Positions 1 to 52,495 of a stretch of 64,000 nucleotides of DNA are shown piece by piece. Positions within the stretch are counted from its first letter, which is position 1; each line of letters opens with the position of its first letter. A model generated the notes under the pieces. The model saw nothing but the letters and a program-made list of their open reading frames with translations, made no database searches and had not been told where the DNA came from. This DNA is from Subdoligranulum variabile (lineage in GTDB: Bacteria > Bacillota > Clostridia > Oscillospirales > Ruminococcaceae): positions 8-64,007 of the forward strand of contig SFOX01000008.1 of NCBI GenBank assembly GCA_004552305.1, in the 5' to 3' direction. The position numbers were made by a program, and so were the translations under genes.

Positions 1-95
1 GCAACGGGCGGCATTTATGCCGCCCCTACGAACCAACCCGTTTTTTTCGCGTTTCGGTTAGGTCGCGGGCGGGGCATGCCCCGCCCCTACCGTGC
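1..95. repeat. REP-like hairpin cluster (2 units)
   Basis: gggcggcatttatgccgccc followed by ctac, and ggggcggggcatgccccgcccc followed by ctac. Same unit families as the other intergenic clusters. Confidence 0.8.
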
Positions 96-103
96 CGCAG
101 CAC

Positions 104-2158
104 TTATTCCAGCTCAAAATCGCCGGGCAGCAGCAGCTCCAGGCTGGCGGCGGGGTCGGCGATCAGGCGGCGGGATTGGTTCAAAATCGCCTTTTCCAAG
201 GCGTTGCGCGCCATACGTCCGTTGCCGTTGGTGGCGGCGTCCTCGGCTTGGCGGCGGTCAAACCATTCGGTCAGCGGCTGCTCGCAGCTTTCGTCCAGCC
301 GGTAGCCCTTGCTTTTGGCGATGGAAAGCAAAATTTTGTACAGCTCCGCGCCCGTGTAATCGGGGAATTCGATCTGGTTCGGGAAGCGGCTGGCAAGCCC
401 GGAGTTCGCGCTCAAAAACAGCTGCATCTCCTTGGTGTAGCCCGCCAGAATCACCACCAGATCGTTGTGATGATCCTCAATGCCCTTGACCAGCGTGTCG
501 ATGGCCTCCAAGCCGAAGCTGTCCTCGCCGCCGCGGTACAGGCTGTAGGCTTCGTCAATAAACAGCACGCCGCCCAAGGCGCTTTGAATCACCGTGTTGG
601 TCAACGGCGCGGTATGCCCGACATAGCGCCCCACCAAGTCGGCGCGGGTCACCTCGACCAGCTGCCCGCCCCGCAAAGCGCCAATGGCTTTGAGGTACTT
701 GGACAAAATGCGGGCGATCGTCGTCTTGCCGGTGCCGGGGTTGCCGGTAAAGATCATATGCATATTGATGTCGGCAACCTTAAGCCCCTCTGCCTTGCGG
801 CGCTGCTGCGCCTGCACGTTTTTGGCGATATCACGCACATAATCCTTAATTTCGGTAAGCCCGACGATCTCGTCCAGCTCTGCCTCCACGGCATCGACAT
901 CCCCGCGGTACTGCTGCGGCAAAAGCGCCAGCAGATCCAGCGGTGCCGCGCCGTCCACCGCCATCAGCAGGCGGTCGTTTTCCACACACAGGGCAGCGGG
1001 GGTTCCGGCGGCGGGGGCGATGTCAGCGTCTAACACATACTCGGCAATGGCGCGGTAAATCGTGTCGCAGTAGTCGCGCATCGCCTGCATACCGCGGGTC
1101 TTGCCGTACTGCGCGGCGACAAGGTCGCGCACGGCGGCGTCCATACCCAAGGTCAGCCCGCATTGGCGGCGCACCCGCTGCGCCAGCTCGTTCAGCTCGC
1201 GTGCGGCGATGGCTGCCAGCGACTCCGGGGTGAAGGCTTCGGTGCGGCAGATATCCCCGCAGACGGCGTCCACAAAGCGGGCACCGAAGGTTTCTGCCAG
1301 CGCCGCCTCGCCCTTGCGGGAGAAAAACACAAAATATTTGCCGCCCGCCTTCAGCTCGCCGATGGCACCGGGTGCCAGCGCCGTGCCGACATCCACCAGA
1401 ATGCCGCGCTGCAAGACGTACCGGCTGGACAGCGCCAGTGTGCCGTCCATCGCCAAGGTCGCCAGCATATTCAGATAACCGGGGGCGCAGCCCTCGTAAT
1501 TTTCAAAGGCAAGGACCTCCGCGTCCGATTGCAGCGCGGCGTACAGGTCCTGCAAAAACAGCTTTTCCTGCGCGGGTCCCGGGTACAGGGCAAGGTCCAG
1601 CGTTTCCACCAGCTCGCTGTGCAAAATGCCGCGCCCTGCCAGCTCGCGCACGGTGCAGTCCAGCGCGTAGTGCCGCCCGGTGCCTGCCGCGCCGCACAGC
1701 ACCAGAATGTTGCGCGCCCTGTCGGTGTCGGCGGCGGTACCCAGCACAAAGGGGCGGCGGAACGCCTTGACCAAGGCGGACACAAAGGCGTCCTGCCCCA
1801 GCACCTGCGCACGGATTTTTTCCGCTACACCGGTAAAATCGGCGTGTTCCGGCACGGCGGGCGCAGGGGTAGGGGCGGCGGTCTTGCCGCCCAGCAGACC
1901 GTCCTGCTTCAGGCTGCGGGCTAAATCGCTGCTCATCTTGCGCACGCTGTCGGCGGTGGCAGCGCCCGCCTTTTGCACGGCATCCACGGCACCGGCGGCG
2001 GATTTCTGGCGGCGGTTTGCCTGCTGCAGCGCTTCCAGCTGCGCCTGCATCTGCTGCACGGCGTCCCCGGCCTGGGCGGTCTGCTCGGGCGTGGCGGCAT
2101 ATTTGCCGCCGCCCATCAAGCCGCGCACCCAAGCATCGTATTGATCTTCCAGACCCAT
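104..2158 (-). CDS. AAA+ ATPase, SpoVK/CbxX-like C-terminal module with a degenerate N-terminal P-loop domain
   Basis: 684 aa. Walker A GNPGTGKTT, Walker B VLFIDEAY, SpoVK/CbxX-type tail. N-terminal half has CGAAGTGRH. The ATG lies 3 nt after the upstream stop. Confidence 0.85.
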   Translation of the reverse strand: MGLEDQYDAWVRGLMGGGKYAATPEQTAQAGDAVQQMQAQLEALQQANRRQKSAAGAVDAVQKAGAATADSVRKMSSDLARSLKQDGLLGGKTAAPTPAPAVPEHADFTGVAEKIRAQVLGQDAFVSALVKAFRRPFVLGTAADTDRARNILVLCGAAGTGRHYALDCTVRELAGRGILHSELVETLDLALYPGPAQEKLFLQDLYAALQSDAEVLAFENYEGCAPGYLNMLATLAMDGTLALSSRYVLQRGILVDVGTALAPGAIGELKAGGKYFVFFSRKGEAALAETFGARFVDAVCGDICRTEAFTPESLAAIAARELNELAQRVRRQCGLTLGMDAAVRDLVAAQYGKTRGMQAMRDYCDTIYRAIAEYVLDADIAPAAGTPAALCVENDRLLMAVDGAAPLDLLALLPQQYRGDVDAVEAELDEIVGLTEIKDYVRDIAKNVQAQQRRKAEGLKVADINMHMIFTGNPGTGKTTIARILSKYLKAIGALRGGQLVEVTRADLVGRYVGHTAPLTNTVIQSALGGVLFIDEAYSLYRGGEDSFGLEAIDTLVKGIEDHHNDLVVILAGYTKEMQLFLSANSGLASRFPNQIEFPDYTGAELYKILLSIAKSKGYRLDESCEQPLTEWFDRRQAEDAATNGNGRMARNALEKAILNQSRRLIADPAASLELLLPGDFELE

Positions 2159-2161
2159 GGC

Positions 2162-3292
2162 TTATGCCTCACTTTCTTTGCGGGGAAGTTTGACGGTATA
2201 AAAGTCCTTGACCGAGCATCCGGCGCGCCCGCCACCCGCACAGGCGCAGGCACACGCACAGCTGGATGCACAGGCACACGCGCAGGAGGAGGCACAGCCG
2301 CCCCCGCTGCTGTGGCGTCCCACACCGCCGCCTCGGCTGTGTCCGCCGCCGGCTTTAAAGCCCTTGGGCGGGTCGGTGCGGTGGTAGCCGCTGGGGGGCG
2401 GGGCTGTGCGCAGACGGCGCACGGTGTGGATACCGTTGGTGTACCAGTACCAGTCGTCGGGGTCGATGTCGTCGCCAAAGCCGACGCTCCAGCGGGGAGG
2501 AATGCTCAGCGCAATAACAATAACGATCAGCAATAAAATCAGAAAGGTAACGCCGATCACCTCATCCATAGAGGTGTCTTGGTCGTTGTCGTCCCATGTC
2601 AGCGCATCGTCGGGGCTGTAGGCGGCGTCGGGGTCAAAGCTCTCGGTCACCGGCATGGTGACGTGGACCTCCCCGCCCTGACCGTGTCCCAGCGGACCGT
2701 ACTCCCACAGGAGGTAGTCGCCGTCGGTCGCCATATTGTCGGCGGTGCAGCCGTCGGTCCTACGCCAGCGCACCTCCATCTTTTCCACGCTCAGCTCGTC
2801 AAACCAGCCGGGGGTAAAGGCAAAGTCGGCGGTGCTGTCGGTATTTAAGCGGAACAGGTGGCTCTGATGTACCGAAAACGCAAAATGTACCCGGCTTTCG
2901 GCACCGATCTCGGCGGCGATGTCGGGGGCGTAGTAAGGCTCGGCAAAGGTGATCTTGGCGTAGCTGCCGCCGTTGCCGCTGTACTCGATGTCGGAGATGG
3001 TGTCGGTCAGGGCGGTCAGCTCGTCGGCGTAGGCGTTGGCAAGACCGATTTTGACCCAGGACAGGTAGTCGTCGCGCCCGCCGTCAATGACCTGCCAGTC
3101 GATCTCGTAGGTGATATCGGCAGAGCCGTCCTCCCGCGGGTCCACGGTGACGCGGTAGTAGGGGATGTAGTCCATATCGCCGCTTTCGGCATAAGGGGCA
3201 AGGTCGCCGGCAAAGGCGGCAAGGCAGAGCAGGCACGCCAGCGCACCGACCAGCAAAAACGCGGAAATTTTGCGTACAAGTGTTGTTTTCAT
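2162..3292 (-). CDS. DUF2207-like membrane protein with a C-terminal Gly-rich and (Cys-Ala)n tail
   Basis: 376 aa. N-terminal signal/TM (FLLVGALACLLCLAAFAG), beta-rich ectodomain (YRVTVDPREDGSADITYEIDW), one TM (VIGVTFLILLLIVIVIALSI), tail GGGCASSCACACASSCACACACAGGGRAGC. Its ATG overlaps the upstream stop (TGATG). Confidence 0.7.
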   Translation of the reverse strand: MKTTLVRKISAFLLVGALACLLCLAAFAGDLAPYAESGDMDYIPYYRVTVDPREDGSADITYEIDWQVIDGGRDDYLSWVKIGLANAYADELTALTDTISDIEYSGNGGSYAKITFAEPYYAPDIAAEIGAESRVHFAFSVHQSHLFRLNTDSTADFAFTPGWFDELSVEKMEVRWRRTDGCTADNMATDGDYLLWEYGPLGHGQGGEVHVTMPVTESFDPDAAYSPDDALTWDDNDQDTSMDEVIGVTFLILLLIVIVIALSIPPRWSVGFGDDIDPDDWYWYTNGIHTVRRLRTAPPPSGYHRTDPPKGFKAGGGHSRGGGVGRHSSGGGCASSCACACASSCACACACAGGGRAGCSVKDFYTVKLPRKESEA

Positions 3293-4677
3293 CAGCAGCC
3301 CTCCTGCAGCGGGGTGTCACCCAGCTGGCACTGGCGTTTCATACGGGCACTTTCCTCGCGCACGGTGCGGCAGGATGCGCTGTCCCAGATGCGCTGCCAC
3401 GGCTCGTGCAGGATGTTGCCCAGCCCCTGCCCCGAAAGCCAGCTCTGGCAGGGCAGCACGGTGCCGTCGGGGGCAATGGCCATATTGGACAGGCACGCCC
3501 CACAGCTGGGAATTTGCGTAAAGCCCAGCGCGGTCAGCGTGTCCTCGCTCAGCCAGCCGGGGCTGGTAAAGTTGATCTCCAACCCGTGTTCGGCGGCAAA
3601 CGCCATGGCAGGACGCAGCGCCTCGGTCAGCTCGGCGGGGGTCAGGCGCACGGCGCGGCTTTCGTCCCCGGCGGCGTTGCCGGTGGGGATCAGCCCGCTG
3701 CAGGTCAGGTACCGCACGCCCATGCTGTGGGCAAATTGCACGGTGGCAAGATAATTTTGGTTTAAGCTGCAAAGCGGGGTGTTGATGCTGACGCTCAGCC
3801 CCGCGTCCAAGGCGTTGCGGATGCCGCCCACGGTGTCGGTAAAGCCGTTGGCGCCCACAAGCTGGTTGTGGGTAGCTTCGTCGGCGGAATACAGGGTGAT
3901 CTGCACAGCGTCCAGGCTGGCATCGTGCAGGTCGCGGCAGAGCGCGCTGGTCAGCATACGTCCGTTGGTGTTCAGGCGGGTCACAAACCACTGCGCCGCC
4001 TGCACCAGCTTGACAAGGTCACTGCGCAGGGTCGGCTCGCCGCCGGTAAAGGTCAGCTGCGGAATGCCCGCGTTGCGGCATTTTTCAATGACCGCCAGCC
4101 ACTGGTCGGTGTCCAGCTCCGGCACCTCGGCAAGGGGCTGGCAGGCGGCGTAGCAGTGCAGGCATTTTTGGTTGCAGTGCCACGCGCCGTCCTTGGTCAT
4201 GGCGCTGATCATCAGATCCATGCGGTGGGGCGCTGCCATGCGGGCGGCGTAGTCGCCAAGGCGCATCGGCTGCACCGACACCGGCGGGGTCTTGCCCTGC
4301 GCGATGGCAAGCAGGCAGTCCAGCAGCACCTGCAGGTCGGATTCGATCTGCACGGACGGCGTGCGGCGGTAAATTTTGTGCGCAGCGGCGACAGCCTGCG
4401 CCTGTACGGCATCCCAGTCGGCAGGGGAAAGTTCCTTGCCGGCAAAGGGCTGCAGGGCGTCCATCAGGCAGGCAAGCAGGATCGCCCAGCTGATTTGCAG
4501 CGGCAGGATATCCTGCCCGTTCAGAATGGCAACAAAGGGGGTGGTGCGGTCGGGCTTGCGGCACGGCACCAGATGGATGCGCACCGCGCCGGGACCGTTG
4601 GGGTCCAGCGTGATATGCCGCACGCGGTTCAGGTGGTTGTATACATAAGCGCGCTCAGCAAGGCTGAGAAATTTCAT
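3292..4677 (-). CDS. Radical SAM enzyme with a SPASM-like C-terminal Cys cluster and a ~150-aa N-terminal extension
   Basis: 461 aa. CNQKCLHC (CX3CX2C), GGEPTL, C-terminal CGACLSNMAIAPDGTVLPCQS. RBS GGAGAGGA upstream. Confidence 0.85.
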   Translation of the reverse strand: MKFLSLAERAYVYNHLNRVRHITLDPNGPGAVRIHLVPCRKPDRTTPFVAILNGQDILPLQISWAILLACLMDALQPFAGKELSPADWDAVQAQAVAAAHKIYRRTPSVQIESDLQVLLDCLLAIAQGKTPPVSVQPMRLGDYAARMAAPHRMDLMISAMTKDGAWHCNQKCLHCYAACQPLAEVPELDTDQWLAVIEKCRNAGIPQLTFTGGEPTLRSDLVKLVQAAQWFVTRLNTNGRMLTSALCRDLHDASLDAVQITLYSADEATHNQLVGANGFTDTVGGIRNALDAGLSVSINTPLCSLNQNYLATVQFAHSMGVRYLTCSGLIPTGNAAGDESRAVRLTPAELTEALRPAMAFAAEHGLEINFTSPGWLSEDTLTALGFTQIPSCGACLSNMAIAPDGTVLPCQSWLSGQGLGNILHEPWQRIWDSASCRTVREESARMKRQCQLGDTPLQEGC

Positions 4678-4714
4678 AAAAATTCGTCCTCTCCGGCGGG
4701 ATTTATATGGAAAA

Positions 4715-4743
4715 AGTATACCATAGCCGGGAGAAAATTACAA
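4715..4743 (-). promoter_or_regulatory. Sigma-A-type promoter of the rSAM operon
   Basis: Minus strand TTGTAA-N17-TATACT with TGg extended -10, about 35 nt upstream of the rSAM ATG. Confidence 0.55.
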
Positions 4744-4744
4744 T

Positions 4745-5015
4745 GCAGTCGGGGCGGAAAGTTTGGGGGAGAATTGCCCCGCCCGCGGCTTTACGGAAAT
4801 TACAATATTGCGGGGAATCCGCCGGTATGGCTTCCCCCTTTTGGGGGAAGCTGTCACCGCAAGTGACGGATGAGGGAGCAACTGCCAAACATTTCCCCCT
4901 CATCCGGCGCGTTCCGCGCCACCTTCCCCCCAAGGGGAAGGCTTTCCCGCGGCATAACGGCAATTGCAATCCTACAACCAAGGGAACAATGGCAATACAC
5001 CCAAACACCGCCCTA
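4745..5015. repeat. REP-like cluster including one five-hairpin element copy (4829-4941)
   Basis: Consecutive GC hairpins (cttccccc/gggggaag, gtcac/gtgac, gatgaggg/ccctcatc, ggcgcg/cgcgcc) matching the copies at 17870 and 40629 in reverse orientation. Confidence 0.8.
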
Positions 5016-5086
5016 TAATAAAAAATGTGCCCGCACAGCGGGCACACCCTATCTAAACTCTAAACTCTGCACGCTCAACTCTAAGC
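5016..5086 (-). repeat. Heptad-repeat + terminator-hairpin module (M1), downstream of the ABC ATPase gene
   Basis: Minus strand reads ttagagtt gagcgtg cagagtt tagagtt tagatag ggtgtgcccgc-tgt-gcgggcac attttttatt. Confidence 0.8.
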
Positions 5087-8454: not shown

Positions 8455-8519
8455 AAGAGTTAAGAGTGGAGAGTTTAGAGTTAAGATAAGGTGTGCCCGC
8501 CCCGCGGGCACATTTTTTA
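8455..8519 (+). repeat. Heptad-repeat + terminator-hairpin module (M2)
   Basis: AAGAGTT AAGAGTG GAGAGTT TAGAGTT AAGATAA GG TGTGCCCGC-cccg-CGGGCACA TTTTTT. Starts 4 nt after the stop codon. Confidence 0.85.
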
Positions 8520-8985
8520 TTGTGGGGGCGGTGGTTGGGGGGTGTTGCCATTGTTCCCTTGGCTGTAGGGGCGAGCATTGCTCGCCTATGCGGTTTGTCC
8601 GTTAAATCGTATTGTTGGGATGGCTGCAACGGGCGGCATATATGCCGCCCCTACAGATGACCCGTTATGTTGTTATAACCGCAAAACCGCGGGCGGGGCA
8701 ATGCCCCGCCCCTGCCGCGCAACATATTTTATTGCCCCGTAGGGCGGGGTGACCCCACCCCGCCGGGGGAATTGGTGGTAGCCGAAAGGCGGCAAGGAGG
8801 GGTCAAGACCCCTCCCTACAAATTGCCGGAAGGTGAGCGGTTATAAGGCAAAACGCCCATTTTCGGCAGGTTTGTAGGGGACGCATATATGCGTCCCGTG
8901 CGGTTTGCCCGGTAGTTTGATTTGCCGGGATGGCTGCAACGGGCGGTATATATGCCGCCCCTACGAACCGCCCTGCGATGGGGCA
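8520..8985. repeat. REP/BIME-like cluster (at least 7 GTAG-flanked hairpins in both orientations)
   Basis: Units gtaggggcgagcattgctcgcc, gggcggcatatatgccgcccctac, ggcggggcaatgccccgcccc, gtagggcggggtgaccccaccccgcc, ggaggggtcaagacccctccctac, gtaggggacgcatatatgcgtccc. Confidence 0.85.
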
Positions 8986-28481: not shown

Positions 28482-28548
28482 TAGAGTTAAGAGTTGAGCG
28501 TGTAGAGTTTAGATTTTGTGTGCCCGCTATGCGGGCACATTTTTTTAT
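28482..28548 (+). repeat. Heptad-repeat + terminator-hairpin module (M6); starts at the base after the pyrG stop
   Basis: TAGAGTT AAGAGTT GAGCGTG TAGAGTT TAGATTT TG TGTGCCCGC-tat-GCGGGCACA TTTTTTT. Confidence 0.85.
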
Positions 28549-28861
28549 GGGGCAACAAAAAATCATGGCGCGGTAGGGGCGGGGTATGCCCCGCCCGCGA
28601 TTTTGCGGGAATTACAATATTACGGGTGGGTTGTAGGGGCGGCATATATGCCGCCCGTTGCAGCCAACCCGGTAATGCGATATAACGGGCAAACCGCACG
28701 GGACGCCTATAGGCGTCCCCTACAAACCTGCCGGAAAAGCCATACACAAAACACATTGCCGTGTAGGGGCGGTCATTGACCGCCCGTTGCAGCCATCCCG
28801 GCAGCGCAGCCTGACGGGTAAACCCCACGGGCGAGCCATCCTCGCCCCTACAACCAAAGGG
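28549..28861. repeat. REP/BIME-like cluster
   Basis: Units ggtaggggcggggtatgccccgccc, gtaggggcggcatatatgccgccc, gggacgcctataggcgtcccctac, gtaggggcggtcattgaccgccc, gggcgagccatcctcgcccctac. Confidence 0.85.
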
Positions 28862-39959: not shown

Positions 39960-40547
39960 ATGAAAACCTATCCGTTCAGCGCCCTGCTGGGGCGTATGAA
40001 ATATATCACCCGCTGGAGCCTGATGCGCTCCGCCCGCCCCGAAAGCCTGAGCGAGCATACCGCCGACACGGCGCTGCTGGCGCACACATTGTGCCTGATC
40101 GCCCAAAAATGCACCGGCACGGGGGCGAACATCCGCCCCGATGTGGTGGCGACGGCGGCATTATATCACGATGCACCGGAGATTTTGACCGGGGATATGC
40201 CCACGCCGGTCAAGTACAAGAACGAGGCGCTGCGCACAGCGTACAAGCAGGTCGAGCAGGAGAGCGCCCGGCTGATGGCAAGCCTGCAGCCGCCCGAGCT
40301 GCGCCCCGTGACCGAAGGCTACCTGACCGGCAGCGTGCTGAACGCCGACGAGGCAAAGCTTTTGAAGGCGGCGGATCGGCTTTCGGCGCTGATCAAATGT
40401 ATGGAGGAGGACTCGCACGAGTTTGCCGCCGCCAAGGCGCAGCAGACGCAGGCGCTGCACGAGATGCACTGCCCGGAGGCAGAGTATTTTATGCAGTATA
40501 TGCTGCCCTGCTATGCGGAAAATTTGGACGAACTGACGAAAATTTGA
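39960..40547 (+). CDS. YfbR-like HD-domain 5'-deoxynucleotidase
   Basis: 195 aa. SEHTADTALLAH...YHDAPEILTGD. Confidence 0.85.
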   Translation: MKTYPFSALLGRMKYITRWSLMRSARPESLSEHTADTALLAHTLCLIAQKCTGTGANIRPDVVATAALYHDAPEILTGDMPTPVKYKNEALRTAYKQVEQESARLMASLQPPELRPVTEGYLTGSVLNADEAKLLKAADRLSALIKCMEEDSHEFAAAKAQQTQALHEMHCPEAEYFMQYMLPCYAENLDELTKI

Positions 40548-40610
40548 GAGTTTAGAGTTGAGAGTTTAGAGTTTAGATTTGGTGTGTCCGCGCAAGCGGA
40601 CACATTTTTA
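40546..40610 (+). repeat. Heptad-repeat + terminator-hairpin module (M8), overlapping the stop codon
   Basis: tGAGAGTT TAGAGTT GAGAGTT TAGAGTT TAGATTT GG TGTGTCCGC-gcaa-GCGGACACA TTTTT. Confidence 0.85.
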
Positions 40611-45684: not shown

Positions 45685-46050
45685 TGTAGGGCGGGGTGAC
45701 CCCACCCCGCCGGGCAACATAAAATTTTATGGCATTTCCCCCTTTGGTTGTAGGGGCGAGCATTGCTCGCCCGCGGGGTTTACCCGTTAGGCTGCGCTGC
45801 CGGGATGGCTGCACGGGCGGTCAATGACCGCCCCTACAAACCAACCCGCAAGATTGCAATTGCCGTTATGCCGCGGGCGGGGCAATGCCCCGCCCCTACC
45901 GCGCAACATATTTTTATTGCCCCGTAGGGCGGGGTGACCTCACCCCGCCAAGGGATTTGGCGGCAGCCGCAATTTTCCCCCTCATCAGTCACCTTCGGTG
46001 ACAGCTTCCCCCAAGGGGGAAGCCTTACAGGCGGTTACCCGTTGGGTCGC
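45685..46050. repeat. REP/BIME-like cluster plus a partial five-hairpin copy (45977-46023)
   Basis: 45731-45840 is the reverse complement of about 28740-28860 (gcgagc / gcggtc hairpin pair). Confidence 0.85.
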
Positions 46051-48465: not shown

Positions 48466-48850
48466 CCTTCCCCCCGTGGGGGAAGGTGGCGCGGAACGCG
48501 CCGGATGAGGGGGAAATGTCCGGCAGGCTGCAACGGGCGGCATGTATGCCGCCCCTACAAACCGAACCGCAGTATTGCAATTGCCGCAAAACCGCGGGCG
48601 GGGCATACCCCGCCCCTACTGCGCAATGATTGTTGTTGCCGCACAATCCTGTGATGGTTCGGTATTTCCGGCGGGTTTGTAGGGGACGCATATATGCGTC
48701 CCGTGCGGTTTGCCCGTTAGGTTGTATTACCGGAATGGCTGCAACGGGCGGCATGTATGCCGCCCCTACGAATGACCCGTTATGTTGCTGCAACCGCAAA
48801 GTCGCGGGCGGGGCTTGCCCCGCCCCTACTGCGCAATGTTTGTTGCTGCC
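48466..48850. repeat. REP/BIME-like cluster; the 5' end is a partial five-hairpin copy and the 3' end overlaps the murE-like stop
   Basis: Five GTAG hairpins. The flank ctactgcgcaatgNttgttgNtgcc occurs at both 48625 and 48825. Confidence 0.8.
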
Positions 48851-51809: not shown

Positions 51810-51842
51810 ATCCCTTGCAAATGCCTTTGTGGGCAAGAATCT

Positions 51843-51916
<74 letters not shown>

Positions 51917-51919
51917 TAT

Positions 51920-51997
51920 GGTGCCTATGGCGCAGTTGGTTAGCGCGCCAGATTGTGGCTCTGGAGGCCGAGAGTTCGAATCTCTCTAGGCACCCCA
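51920..51997 (+). tRNA. tRNA-His (anticodon GTG) with encoded G-1 and CCA
   Basis: Extra 5' G, acceptor GTGCCTA/TAGGCAC, anticodon loop TTGTGGC, T-loop TTCGAAT, then C-CCA. Confidence 0.9.
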
Positions 51998-52044
51998 CCA
52001 AAAAACCGTGTAGGCAAAGCACCCGCACGGTTTTTTATTTTTAC

Positions 52045-52119
52045 TGGGCCGTCGCCAAGCGGTAAGGCAGAGGACTTTGACTCCTCCATCCGTCGGTTCA
52101 AATCCGGCCGGCCCAACCA
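52045..52119 (+). tRNA. tRNA-Gln (anticodon TTG) with encoded CCA
   Basis: Acceptor TGGGCCG/CGGCCCA, anticodon loop CTTTGAC, T-loop TTCAAAT. Confidence 0.9.
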
Positions 52120-52235: not shown

Positions 52236-52300
52236 AGAGTTAAGAGTGGAGAGTTGAGAGTTTAGATAAGGTATGCCGCCCGAGGGGCGGCATTTTTTGT
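52235..52300 (+). repeat. Heptad-repeat + hairpin module (M10)
   Basis: TAGAGTT AAGAGTG GAGAGTT GAGAGTT TAGATAA GG TATGCCGCCC-gag-GGGCGGCAT TTTTT. Confidence 0.85.
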
Positions 52301-52495
52301 AAAAAACCTAATGGGACGGTTGCGAACCTTCGGAGGGTTTGTAGGGGACGCATAGATGCGTCCCGTGCGGTTTTCCCGTTAGGTCGATTTGCCGGGATGG
52401 CTGCAACGGGCGGCATATATGCCGCCCCTACGAACCAACCCATTATATTCATTATAATATATACGGTCGCGGGCGGGGCGTGCCCCGCCCCTACA
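52301..52495. repeat. REP-like cluster (3 units)
   Basis: gtaggggacgcatagatgcgtccc, gggcggcatatatgccgcccctac, gggcggggcgtgccccgcccctac. Confidence 0.85.

What the first reader, a model, noticed from the sequence alone, without database searches (positions are those of the whole stretch)
104..4743. Three-gene operon: radical SAM/SPASM enzyme, DUF2207-like membrane protein with a cytoplasmic (Cys-Ala)n tail, and a SpoVK-like AAA+ ATPase
The unit has its own promoter (4715-4743), then three genes joined by a 1-nt overlap (TGATG) and a 3-nt gap. It ends in a repeat cluster. The rSAM protein has CX3CX2C plus a C-terminal auxiliary Cys cluster (the SPASM class is typical of peptide/protein-modifying maturases) and a ~150-aa N-terminal extension that could be a substrate-recognition domain. 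I find no small precursor ORF. The translationally coupled next gene ends with HSRGGGVGRHSSGGGCASSCACACASSCACACACAGGGRAGC. With signal peptide out and a single TM, that tail should be cytoplasmic and accessible to both the rSAM enzyme and the ATPase. Hypothesis: the Cys-rich tail of the membrane protein is the rSAM substrate (thioether-type crosslinks, as in SCIFF/ranthipeptide or sactipeptide chemistry) or a metal/Fe-S binding module, with the AAA+ protein acting as a remodeller. I am not aware of a described system with this composition.
Basis: partly seen in the sequence, partly recalled or inferred. Interest (0 to 1): 0.7.

Follow-up and report, generated by a model that had tools for sequence, protein, structure and literature searches.

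The report
rSAM enzyme plus Cys-Ala-tailed membrane protein
Many gut Clostridia carry an undescribed two-gene cassette: a radical-SAM enzyme always encoded next to a single-pass membrane protein whose cytoplasmic tail ends in the invariant sequence CACACACAGGGRAGC, which is probably the enzyme's substrate; Gemmiger and its relatives, including this window, add a dedicated CbbX/SpoVK-type ATPase.

Summary
Three minus-strand genes form one unit: rSAM/SPASM 4677-3292, membrane protein 3292-2162, AAA+ 2158-104. They are joined by a TGATG overlap and a 3-nt gap.

The conserved core is the first two genes.
- The rSAM gene lies beside the membrane-protein gene in 48/48 species genomes found through the ectodomain.
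- It also does so in 61/61 metagenome contigs found through the tail motif alone.
- The same holds in 3/3 distant representatives and in six contigs carrying P0006 (64% identical).
- Flanking genes are unrelated from clade to clade.

Forty homologs average 31% identity, yet the 15 residues CACACACAGGGRAGC never change. Forty-five different DNA versions encode them.

The ectodomain is a remote DUF2207 / ribophorin-I-like beta-sandwich. The tail is predicted disordered and inferred cytoplasmic. The rSAM enzyme is closest to the RiPP maturases SkfB, SuiB and CteB, and has a family-specific N-terminal domain of 4 strands and 3 helices.

The AAA+ gene occurs only in the Gemmiger/Subdoligranulum clade. 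There it tracks a clade-specific juxtamembrane segment perfectly.

No family model, source name or paper describes the system.

Best reading: RiPP-type modification, probably thioether, of a full-length membrane protein's tail. The chemistry is untested.

The parts
4715..4743 (-). Sigma-70-like promoter candidate: TTGTAA, 17 nt, extended TG-TATACT
   Evidence: Three sites were found against 1.1 expected in 5.2 kb, so this is suggestive only. An RBS (GGAGAGGA) lies before the ATG at 4677.
3292..4677 (-). Radical SAM / SPASM-like enzyme, 461 aa. Proposed maturase of the tail motif.
   Evidence: Pfam Radical_SAM 1.1e-17 and SPASM 5.4e-8. No NCBIfam equivalog reaches its cutoff. Closest solved structures are SkfB, SuiB, anSME, CteB and PqqE.
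4273..4677 (-). Family-specific N-terminal domain (aa 1-135): 4 beta-strands then 3 helices. Candidate substrate-recognition (RRE-like) domain.
   Evidence: AF2 pLDDT is about 80-96 over aa 1-126. The domain is conserved in all subfamily members. Foldseek alignments to the RRE-bearing SkfB, SuiB and CteB span 420-471 columns. No sequence-level RRE or PqqD match was found.
4153..4176 (-). CX3CX2C radical-SAM cluster motif (C168, C172, C175; CNQKCLHC)
   Evidence: Direct reading. Invariant in alignments A2 and A3.
3325..3504 (-). SPASM/twitch-like auxiliary Cys region (aa 392-451): C392, C395, G405, C410, C436, C450
   Evidence: The Pfam SPASM hit covers profile positions 1-64 of 67. These Cys are invariant. 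The canonical CX2CX5CX3C is absent by direct reading.
2162..3292 (-). Single-pass membrane protein, 376 aa: signal peptide, beta-sandwich ectodomain, TM helix, disordered Cys-Ala tail
   Evidence: The family has 650 clusters at 50% identity with E<=1e-3.
3209..3292 (-). N-terminal signal peptide or anchor (aa 1-28, AFA|GD)
   Evidence: AF2 helix 4-25. The n-region averages +2.65 K/R and 0.05 D/E in 40 homologs.
2651..3172 (-). Extracytoplasmic all-beta domain (aa 41-214), remote DUF2207 N-domain / ribophorin I-like fold
   Evidence: AF2 pLDDT >90. Foldseek matches RPN1/Ost1 (6e-7) and M1-aminopeptidase N-domains. Pfam PF09972 is hit sub-threshold in 22 of 40 homologs.
2504..2569 (-). Transmembrane helix (aa 242-263)
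   Evidence: AF2 helix 242-263. Hydropathy 3.2.
2366..2467 (-). Clade-specific juxtamembrane segment IDPDDWYWYTNGIHTVRRLRTAPPPSGYHRTDPP (aa 276-309). Candidate docking site for the AAA+.
   Evidence: Invariant within the Gemmiger clade. Present in 64/64 scorable loci with the AAA+ gene and in 0/63 loci without it.
2216..2296 (-). Cys-rich stretch C333-C359. The family-invariant core CACACACAGGGRAGC is C345-C359 (2216-2260).
   Evidence: 15 of the 22 invariant columns in 40 homologs fall here. The motif is present in 47/48 ectodomain-selected genomes, encoded by 45 DNA versions. It occurs once in the window.
2165..2215 (-). C-terminal 'follower' SVKDFYTVKLPRKESEA. K362 is invariant and S360 and Y365 are nearly so.
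   Evidence: The motif always lies 5-42 aa (median 21) from the C-terminus.
104..2158 (-). AAA+ ATPase, 684 aa. A clade-specific accessory, probably a dedicated chaperone or remodeller.
   Evidence: Adjacent in 38 of 47 scorable genome loci; all 38 were recovered with full-length, roughly 43-95% identical membrane-protein matches and are mostly titled Gemmiger/Subdoligranulum.
107..898 (-). CbbX/SpoVK/EccA-type AAA module (aa 421-684): Walker A GNPGTGKT, Walker B VLFIDEA, pore loop LVGRYVGHT, sensor-1 AGY
   Evidence: CbbX 3syk 4.6e-58 and EccA1 1.6e-46. The motifs are conserved in 42 of 42 complete homologs.
914..2158 (-). AAA+ N-terminal half (aa 1-415): coiled-coil-like start, then a degenerate P-loop region (GAAGTGRHYA). 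By eye it resembles Clp-D2 or torsin.
   Evidence: Faint Pfam Torsin hit at aa 107-187, E 0.011. No PDB or Pfam match when searched alone. The degenerate P-loop is conserved. It is 75-95% identical across the clade.
6..90 (-). Two REP-like hairpins downstream of the operon (6-29 and 67-90). Generic genome repeats, possibly also the transcript end.
   Evidence: 18 copies in the window against 0 expected.

Best explanation
The conserved unit is a two-gene cassette. A cytoplasmic radical-SAM enzyme with a SPASM/twitch-type auxiliary cluster is co-translated with a single-pass membrane protein. That protein has an extracytoplasmic DUF2207/ribophorin-I-like beta-sandwich, one TM helix and a disordered cytoplasmic tail.

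Inferred mechanism:
- The enzyme binds the tail through its family-specific N-terminal domain. It most likely recognises the conserved segment that follows the motif ([ST]-x-K-[DN]-[FL]-Y plus a short helix), because the sequence before the motif is variable low-complexity linker.
- It then uses 5'-deoxyadenosyl radical chemistry on the invariant CACACACAGGGRAGC core.
- The most likely product is Cys-derived thioether cross-links (sacti- or ranthi-type) onto neighbouring Ala or Gly carbons. This would turn a floppy tail into a rigid, cross-linked cytoplasmic module.
- This is RiPP-style maturation applied to a full-length membrane protein rather than to a small exported peptide.

In the Gemmiger/Subdoligranulum lineage, which includes this window, a third gene encodes a CbbX/SpoVK/EccA-clade AAA+ protein. 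Its large N-terminal half is inferred to recruit the tail through the clade-specific WYTNG...PPPxGY juxtamembrane segment. Its intact pore loop would then pull on or remodel the tail, or hand it to or take it from the rSAM enzyme.

Shown: gene linkage, motif invariance, folds and family placement. Inferred: substrate identity, chemistry, topology and the AAA+ role.
For: 1. Obligate pairing.
- The rSAM gene is adjacent on the same strand in 48/48 species-level genomes retrieved through ectodomain peptides.
- It is adjacent in 61/61 metagenome contigs retrieved only through the motif's degenerate DNA pattern and long enough to judge; 60 lie upstream and 1 downstream.
- It is adjacent in 3/3 distant representatives, each with a 4-nt overlap, and in six contigs of P0006.
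- The other neighbours are unrelated housekeeping genes.

2. Motif conservation.
- In 40 homologs averaging 31% identity, 15 of the 22 invariant columns are CACACACAGGGRAGC.
- 47/48 genomes carry the motif; the exception is cut by a contig end.
- 45 distinct DNA versions vary synonymously at every codon, so selection acts on the peptide.
- The Ala and Gly residues are as invariant as the Cys. That suits an enzyme substrate better than a simple metal site.

3. The motif always sits 5-42 aa from the C-terminus of this one architecture. The stretch is predicted disordered, which means accessible.

4. The rSAM enzyme resembles peptide and protein maturases.
- phmmer against PDB: SkfB 2.5e-11, PqqE 1.3e-10.
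- Foldseek: SkfB 4.9e-9, then SuiB, anSME, CteB.
- A confident N-terminal 4-strand, 3-helix domain is present, and alignments to RRE-bearing maturases cover nearly the full length.

5. No conserved small ORF accompanies the cassette.

6. The AAA+ module is 200 bits to CbbX, which acts on the RbcL C-terminal tail. Walker A, Walker B and the pore loop are intact. Its clade is described as dedicated chaperones whose variable N-domains recruit one substrate (PMC11513918). Its presence tracks the juxtamembrane segment in 64/64 loci, against 0/63 loci without it.
Against: - No chemistry or binding was tested. AF-Multimer was not available.
- The N-terminal domain has no detectable sequence similarity to PqqD or RRE families.
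- The Foldseek TM-scores are low (0.39-0.47) and the RMSDs high.
- The auxiliary-cluster region lacks the canonical SPASM CX2CX5CX3C.
- The His/Gly/Ser/Cys-rich composition of the tail would also suit metal binding.
- The cytoplasmic location of the tail is inferred. The positive-inside signal around the TM helix is weak, with K/R 1.75 after it against 1.2 before it.
- The match between the AAA+ gene and the juxtamembrane segment is confined to one clade. It may therefore reflect shared ancestry rather than interaction.
Confidence: 0.55

Rival explanations
1. The tail is a metal- or Fe-S-binding module, not a substrate. The CxCxCxC face and the His/Gly-rich linker would bind Fe-S, Zn, Cu or Ni. 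The membrane protein would then act as a membrane anchor, redox partner or cluster donor for the rSAM enzyme, and the enzyme would act on a different substrate such as a lipid or an envelope precursor at the membrane.
For: The tail is rich in Cys, His and Gly. One subfamily inserts a Zn-ribbon into the same tail. CxC motifs are classic metallothionein-type ligands (general knowledge). The lipid-modifying rSAM enzyme GDGT-MAS appears among the structural neighbours at rank 25. The tight pairing would be explained equally well.
Against: Metal sites rarely fix the spacer residues, yet here every Ala and Gly of the 15-mer is invariant across about 30%-identical proteins. The enzyme's best relatives are peptide and protein maturases, not lipid enzymes. 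No transporter or other metal-related gene is conserved nearby.
Confidence: 0.22
2. The C-terminal 35-60 residues are a tethered RiPP precursor. After rSAM modification the Cys-rich peptide would be cleaved from the membrane protein and released or exported as a signal or antimicrobial.
For: The enzyme resembles sactipeptide and ranthipeptide maturases. The motif lies at the extreme C-terminus. Upstream CAHSS/CASS units vary in number, like repeated cores.
Against: No protease, exporter or immunity gene is conserved with the cassette. The ectodomain, the TM helix and the tail are always found as one protein (101 of 118 motif ORF segments carry the ectodomain; those examined among the rest were frameshifted or truncated). 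There are no hits in viral contigs, and nothing marks the locus as mobile.
Confidence: 0.08
3. The rSAM enzyme generates a radical or cofactor on the tail rather than cross-links. For example it could produce a stable glycyl or thiyl radical, or a protein-derived cofactor, in the GGGRAGC segment, making the membrane protein itself catalytic or redox-active.
For: The Gly-rich GGGRAG stretch next to Cys is invariant. There is precedent for rSAM activases acting on a Gly loop of a partner protein (glycyl radical enzymes; general knowledge).
Against: The enzyme is not PflA-like by any HMM. The motif does not match the RVxG-type glycyl-radical signature by direct reading. The tail has no predicted fold that could shield a radical.
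Confidence: 0.05
4. The adjacency has no functional meaning. The rSAM enzyme and the membrane protein would simply be neighbours, and the tail would be low-complexity filler.
For: None beyond the lack of experimental data.
Against: The genes are adjacent in every scorable case across two independent sampling routes, with overlapping stop and start codons and unrelated flanks. The 15-mer is under strict purifying selection.
Confidence: 0.02

Closest known systems
Sactipeptide and ranthipeptide maturases (SkfB/SkfA, CteB/SCIFF, AlbA, thuricin enzymes)
   Same: They are rSAM enzymes with a C-terminal twitch/SPASM auxiliary cluster and an N-terminal recognition domain. They act on Cys-rich ribosomal substrates encoded next door and form Cys thioethers. 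SkfB is the best hit by both sequence and structure.
   Different: Here the substrate is not a 40-60 aa leader-core peptide. It is the C-terminal tail of a 310-430 aa membrane protein. No leader, protease or exporter is present. The conserved flank lies after the core, like a follower. No NCBIfam maturase model reaches its cutoff. The SPASM Cys pattern is incomplete.
QhpD/QhpC (thioether cross-linking of the quinohemoprotein amine dehydrogenase gamma subunit) and anSME (formylglycine in sulfatases)
   Same: These are SPASM-type rSAM enzymes that modify Cys in a functional protein rather than in an exported natural product. anSME is among the top structural neighbours.
   Different: The target architecture, the motif (no C-x-[PA]-x-R) and the organisms all differ. 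The targets of those enzymes are soluble or periplasmic enzymes, not membrane-protein tails.
DUF2207 (PF09972) membrane proteins
   Same: They share a signal peptide, an N-terminal beta-sandwich ectodomain, a TM region and a Gly-rich cytoplasmic C-terminus. 22 of 40 family members give sub-threshold PF09972 hits. The fold is ribophorin-I-like.
   Different: The window protein itself gives no hit. Scores stay below the gathering threshold (best 23 bits in the scans that reported scores, against 24.4). There is one TM helix rather than several. The invariant Cys-Ala motif and the rSAM partner are not features described for DUF2207 (recalled knowledge; the paper search for 'DUF2207' with 'radical SAM' returned 0 papers).
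CbbX / SpoVK / EccA clade of AAA+ chaperones
   Same: The C-terminal 265 aa match CbbX at 4.6e-58. Walker A, Walker B, the pore-loop Tyr and the sensor-1 GY are present. The clade is known for single dedicated clients recruited by variable N-domains (PMC11513918). CbbX acts on a C-terminal tail.
   Different: The 415-aa N-terminal half is unique, with a degenerate P-loop. No NCBIfam equivalog threshold is reached. The first SRH Arg is replaced by Ala. The client is unknown and the operon partner is an rSAM cassette.

Membership tests
Radical SAM superfamily | CX3CX2C cluster motif within a Radical_SAM (PF04055) domain | tested here: met
   PF04055 scores 65 bits against a cutoff of 29.5. C168, C172 and C175 are invariant.
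SPASM-domain rSAM enzymes | PF13186/TIGR04085 domain carrying the 7-Cys pattern CX9-15GX4C ... CX2CX5CX3C ... C for two auxiliary [4Fe-4S] clusters | tested here: inconclusive
   PF13186 scores 33.4 bits against a cutoff of 21.5. C395-x9-G-x4-C410 is present. CX2CX5CX3C is absent by direct reading; only C436 and C450 follow. The region is probably twitch-like with one cluster. Three further invariant Cys (C247, C303, C326) lie in the barrel.
RiPP rSAM maturases (sacti- and ranthipeptide type) | N-terminal RiPP recognition element (PqqD-like winged helix-turn-helix) | tested here: inconclusive
   AF2 gives a confident 4-strand, 3-helix domain. Foldseek gives near-full-length alignments to the RRE-bearing SkfB, SuiB and CteB. 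Pfam, a profile search of PDB and hhalign against a PqqD protein all find nothing.
RiPP rSAM maturases (sacti- and ranthipeptide type) | Adjacent small precursor peptide with a leader and a Cys-containing core | tested here: not met
   No conserved small ORF was found upstream in 118 loci. The only conserved Cys-rich sequence is the tail of the 376-aa membrane protein.
RiPP rSAM maturases (sacti- and ranthipeptide type) | Product contains Cys S-to-C(alpha/beta/gamma) thioether bonds | not testable with these tools
   This needs mass spectrometry or NMR of the modified tail.
SCIFF system (TIGR03973 peptide / TIGR03974 maturase) | HMM membership of the peptide and the maturase | tested here: not met
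   Neither model appears among the 25 best NCBIfam hits shown for the rSAM enzyme, and none of those reaches its cutoff. The tail gives no NCBIfam family hit apart from a chance-level 8-residue SpoVM match.
anSME (sulfatase-maturating enzymes) | Substrate motif C/S-x-P/A-x-R | tested here: not met
   Direct reading shows that no Cys in the tail has P or A at +2 and R at +4.
DUF2207 (PF09972) | N-terminal domain scoring above the Pfam gathering threshold | tested here: not met
   The window protein gives no hit at E<=10. Family members score 12.8-23 bits against a threshold of 24.4 in the scans that reported scores; 22 of 40 have E<1. The relationship is remote homology, not membership.
SpoVK / CbbX / EccA AAA+ clade | Classical AAA domain plus AAA_lid_6, sensor-1 GY signature, Walker A and B | tested here: met
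   PF00004 6e-17 and PF17866 3e-10. CbbX 4.6e-58. GNPGTGKT, VLFIDEA and ILAGY are present.
SpoVK (TIGR02881 equivalog), CbbX (TIGR02880), EccA (TIGR03922) | Score above the curated equivalog cutoff | tested here: not met
   302 against 423, 240 against 459, and 233 against 467 bits. The protein is a clade member but not an ortholog of any of the three.

The most novel reading that the evidence does not exclude
A previously unrecognised post-translational modification system. A dedicated radical-SAM enzyme would install a new covalent structure on the cytoplasmic tail of a widespread family of single-pass surface proteins of gut Clostridia. The structure could be a ladder of adjacent Cys-Ala/Gly thioethers (thiomorpholine-like rings) or a protein-derived sulfur or metal cofactor. 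Recognition would be through a C-terminal follower sequence. In Gemmiger a bespoke CbbX-like AAA+ would work on the modified tail. This would be RiPP chemistry repurposed to build a functional module of a transmembrane receptor or anchor.
Probability: 0.35. Interest if true: 0.85.

Novelty: new variant of a known kind. Interest (0 to 1): 0.7.

Why it matters
Radical-SAM/SPASM maturases are known almost only from small exported peptides (RiPPs) and a few soluble enzymes. This cassette would extend that chemistry to the cytoplasmic tail of an integral membrane protein.

The family is large. It has 650 clusters at 50% identity and thousands of members, in abundant human-gut, animal-gut and rumen Clostridia such as Gemmiger, Subdoligranulum, Acetatifactor and other Lachnospiraceae. 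NCBI calls these genes only 'hypothetical protein' and 'radical SAM protein'.

A 15-residue sequence that never changes across proteins about 30% identical is a rare and sharply defined target for experiments. The substrate is short, the enzyme is encoded next to it, and a mass shift would settle the question. The result would also give a first functional handle on DUF2207-like surface proteins and on a new client of the CbbX/SpoVK/EccA chaperone clade.

Tried and rejected
- **Family libraries on the membrane protein and its parts.** Pfam, NCBIfam and PADLOC gave no hit for the window protein. PADLOC hits to the rSAM enzyme (pVip) and the AAA+ (IetA and others) reflect only the generic domains, so a defence-system reading was dropped.
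- **YxzE-like 'putative bacteriocin' (PF25184).** It is hit weakly in 7 of 40 homologs, at 12-14 bits against a threshold of 40 in the two members whose scores were shown. The match lies over the TM helix plus the Cys/Gly tail. I judged it compositional. The papers on YxzE gave no sequence information.
- **RRE or PqqD assignment of the rSAM N-domain by sequence.** Pfam at E<=10, a 21-sequence profile against PDB, and hhalign against a PqqD protein from L001 were all negative.
- **AAA+ N-half.** A search against PDB and Pfam found nothing. The homolog search returned only 75-95% identical Gemmiger and Subdoligranulum proteins, so it added nothing about other contexts.
- **A third conserved partner in loci without the AAA+ gene.** None was found. 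The neighbours I examined look, by eye, like PheT, QueA, an aminopeptidase, an SNF2 helicase, a glycosidase and AraC.
- **A stand-alone precursor peptide.** None was found.
- **Phage or mobile-element origin.** The motif pattern is absent from IMG/VR.
- **Literature.** Searches by motif string, by DUF2207 with radical SAM, by rSAM with SPASM, SpoVK and membrane protein, and by thioether with tail returned nothing relevant. The hits on CACACACAGGG and GGGRAGC appear to be nucleotide sequences (primers and the like).
- **Structure prediction with locus-derived sequences.** The rSAM model therefore rests on a shallow 8-sequence alignment.
- **Cluster listing artefact.** In one search the listing for the AAA+ cluster was mixed with membrane-protein sequences. 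I ignored that part.

Full report
**1. Observation.**

The window carries three minus-strand ORFs exactly as described.
- A 461-aa radical-SAM protein at 4677-3292.
- A 376-aa membrane protein at 3292-2162.
- A 684-aa AAA+ protein at 2158-104.

The first junction is TGATG, a 1-nt overlap with a GGAGG just upstream. The second is TAA-gcc-ATG. A sigma-70-like -35/-10 pair lies at 4743-4715, though the scan is only mildly enriched: 3 sites against 1.1 expected. A terminator-like hairpin at 5050-5022 ends the upstream glnQ-like gene. The trio is therefore its own transcription unit.

The 'repeat cluster' after the operon is two copies of a REP-like hairpin (GTAGGGGCGG-loop-CCGCCC). That hairpin occurs 18 times in the window against 0 expected. 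It is generic, not part of the system.

**2. The three proteins.**

*rSAM enzyme.*
- Pfam finds Radical_SAM at aa 168-301 and SPASM at aa 392-451.
- No NCBIfam equivalog comes near its cutoff. The best is NirJ2 at 104 bits against 500.
- Direct reading shows C392-x2-C395-x9-G-x4-C410 followed only by C436 and C450. The canonical CX2CX5CX3C is missing, so the auxiliary domain is twitch-like or a partial SPASM. Three more invariant Cys lie in the barrel.
- By sequence the closest solved proteins are SkfB (2.5e-11) and PqqE.
- An AF2 model has mean pLDDT 72.8 and is built on a shallow alignment. Its best structural matches are SkfB, SuiB, anSME, CteB and PqqE.
- Residues 1-126 fold confidently into four strands and three helices.
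- Foldseek alignments to the RRE-bearing maturases run 420-471 columns, nearly full length. TM-scores are only about 0.45.
- Pfam, a profile search of PDB and hhalign against a PqqD protein find no sequence link to RREs.
- I call the domain 'RRE-like by topology, unproven'.

*Membrane protein.*
- No Pfam, NCBIfam or PADLOC hit.
- AF2 with a 40-sequence alignment gives a helix at 4-25, an all-beta domain at 41-214 with pLDDT above 90, a TM helix at 242-263 and a disordered tail.
- The beta domain matches the lumenal domain of ribophorin I/Ost1 and the N-domain of M1 aminopeptidases.
- 22 of 40 homologs give sub-threshold hits to the DUF2207 N-domain.
- The N-terminal n-region is basic, averaging +2.65 K/R. 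With a single further TM helix, the tail should be cytoplasmic. The positive-inside signal at that helix is weak. This topology is an inference.

*AAA+.*
- Residues 415-671 match CbbX at 4.6e-58 and EccA1 at 1.6e-46.
- Walker A, Walker B, the pore loop LVGRYVGHT and the sensor-1 GY are conserved in all 42 complete homologs.
- The 415-aa N-half has no database match.
- It keeps a conserved degenerate P-loop (GxxG[TS]GRH[YF]A). By eye it resembles a Clp-D2 or torsin module, and Pfam gives a faint Torsin hit.
- The SpoVK paper characterises this clade as dedicated chaperones with one client, recruited through variable N-domains (PMC11513918).

**3. What is conserved.**

- The membrane protein has thousands of homologs. 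A profile search of 50%-identity representatives gives 650 clusters at E<=1e-3.
- Of the best 149 representatives, 96 carry GGG[RK]AGC. Those lacking it are mostly fragments or frameshifted at the tail.
- In an alignment of 40 diverse full-length members (mean column identity 31%) only 22 columns are invariant. Fifteen of them are the contiguous CACACACAGGGRAGC, followed by S-x-K-[DN]-[FL]-Y.
- Among 48 species genomes retrieved only through ectodomain peptides, 47 carry the motif. The exception is cut by a contig end.
- Forty-five distinct DNA versions vary synonymously at every codon. The peptide, including its Ala and Gly residues, is under strict purifying selection.

**4. Gene linkage.**

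- In all 48 genome loci a close homolog of this rSAM enzyme (43-98% identity, including the N-domain) lies directly beside the membrane-protein gene.
  - 101 of 118 motif-bearing ORF segments carry the ectodomain. Those I examined among the rest were frameshifted or truncated.
  - The motif lies 5-42 aa from the C-terminus.
  - All 61 contigs with enough upstream sequence have the subfamily rSAM gene adjacent on the same strand.
- Two contigs without an rSAM gene (L111, L162) carry N-terminally truncated or chimeric genes.
- Three distant representatives checked individually again show the rSAM gene upstream with a 4-nt overlap.
- Flanking genes differ from clade to clade and look like housekeeping genes.
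- No small ORF is conserved upstream beyond closely syntenic relatives.
- The motif pattern is absent from IMG/VR.
- The functional unit is therefore the rSAM gene plus the tailed membrane-protein gene.

**5. The AAA+ gene is an add-on.**

- It is adjacent in 38 of the 47 scorable genome loci, all from the Gemmiger/Subdoligranulum group.
- It is absent from all nine loci labelled Acetatifactor, Lachnospiraceae, Clostridia or Clostridiales and from the three extra representatives.
- Across all fetched loci, 65 of 128 scorable motif sites have it downstream.
- Its presence coincides perfectly with a clade-specific juxtamembrane segment...DPDDW-x-WY[TS]NG-x-H-x-I...PPP-x-GY. After correcting my over-strict regular expression by eye, the count is 64/64 with the gene and 0/63 without it.
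- This fits the AAA+ N-half docking on that segment. Because it involves a single clade, shared ancestry cannot be excluded.

**6. Interpretation.**

The best-supported reading is that the rSAM enzyme modifies the invariant tail motif.

The reasons are the obligate, translationally coupled pairing, a 15-mer in which the spacer residues are as fixed as the cysteines, an accessible disordered location on the enzyme's side of the membrane, maturase-like relatives of the enzyme, and the absence of any other candidate substrate.

The sequence before the motif is a variable low-complexity linker, while the sequence after it is conserved. Recognition is therefore more likely through a C-terminal follower.

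Cys-to-carbon thioether formation is the chemistry with the closest precedent (SkfB, CteB and other sacti- and ranthisynthases; general knowledge). It is not shown here.

The main rival is that the tail is a metal or Fe-S site and the protein is a membrane partner of the enzyme. The invariance of Ala and Gly argues against this, but it is not excluded.

A tethered, cleavable RiPP precursor is unlikely because no protease or exporter accompanies the cassette.

In Gemmiger the AAA+ most plausibly acts as a dedicated tail-directed chaperone, by analogy with CbbX pulling the RbcL C-terminus.

**7. Novelty.**

- NCBI names the three proteins 'hypothetical protein', 'radical SAM protein' and 'AAA family ATPase'.
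- No curated family covers the membrane protein or its motif.
- No paper in the searchable library mentions the motif or the combination.
- I classify the system as a new variant of a known kind: an rSAM maturase with a genetically linked Cys-rich substrate. The unusual feature is that the substrate would be the tail of a full-length membrane protein.
The pairing and the tail-as-substrate idea stand up well. The three-gene framing, the SPASM label and the repeat cluster need correcting. The chemistry remains open.

Noticed in passing
window 6-29, 67-90, 8631-8964, 18028, 28573-28785, 40766, 45815-45899, 48535-48829, 52408-52494; also 1869-1892 inside the AAA+ ORF: A REP-like hairpin family, GTAGGGGCGG-N3-12-CCGCCC. 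There are 18 copies against 0 expected, often in pairs about 60 nt apart in intergenic regions. One copy lies within coding sequence.
   Followed up: partly
window 5051-5068, 8456-8480, 28483-28514, 40547-40578, 52236-52267 and others: A second dispersed short repeat, AGAGTT[TAG]AGAG, sometimes in tandem with a 7-nt period. There are 18 matches against 0.18 expected. Several copies lie within a few hundred bases of the REP hairpins or next to the terminator-like site at 5022-5050.
   Followed up: partly
window 4836-4937: An imperfect inverted repeat with 46-nt arms (74% complementary), made of several short hairpins, lies in the 5' intergenic region of the operon. Its function is unknown and it has no Rfam match.
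   Followed up: no
window 51842-52119: A tRNA cluster: Arg(tct), His(gtg), Gln(ttg).
   Followed up: no
L001 and L005, 189-2195: In Gemmiger formicilis-type contigs, an unrelated RiPP-like set lies about 6 kb upstream of the cassette. It comprises two small ORFs (78 and 66 aa), a PqqD protein, a 371-aa rSAM enzyme and a 41-aa ORF.
   Followed up: no
L051 8001-9221; L082 1-1894; P0344, P0383: One subfamily of the membrane protein has a Zn-ribbon (CPxCG...CxYCG) inserted in the cytoplasmic tail between the TM helix and the Cys-Ala motif. L082 has two such genes in tandem.
   Followed up: partly
P0246, P0250, P0339, P0340, P0349, P0352 (representatives): Several database representatives are frameshifted within the Cys-Ala tail, reading for example RVRVHVHAQAEE. 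This may be assembly error or slippage in the GC-rich TGYGCN repeat. Real phase variation was not excluded.
   Followed up: no
window AAA+ aa ~588-595 (about 374-397) and aa ~160-170: The AAA+ second region of homology reads NSGLASRF in 42 of 42 complete homologs, so the first Arg of CbbX's FRSR is Ala here. The N-half keeps a degenerate P-loop, GxxG[TS]GRH[YF]A, which suggests a pseudo-ATPase module.
   Followed up: partly
L111 and L162: These are motif-bearing genes whose N-terminal part is replaced or truncated. In L111 it is fused to sequence that, by eye, resembles a type I restriction-modification specificity subunit. No rSAM gene is on either contig. They are probably chimeric assemblies or disrupted loci.
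   Followed up: partly
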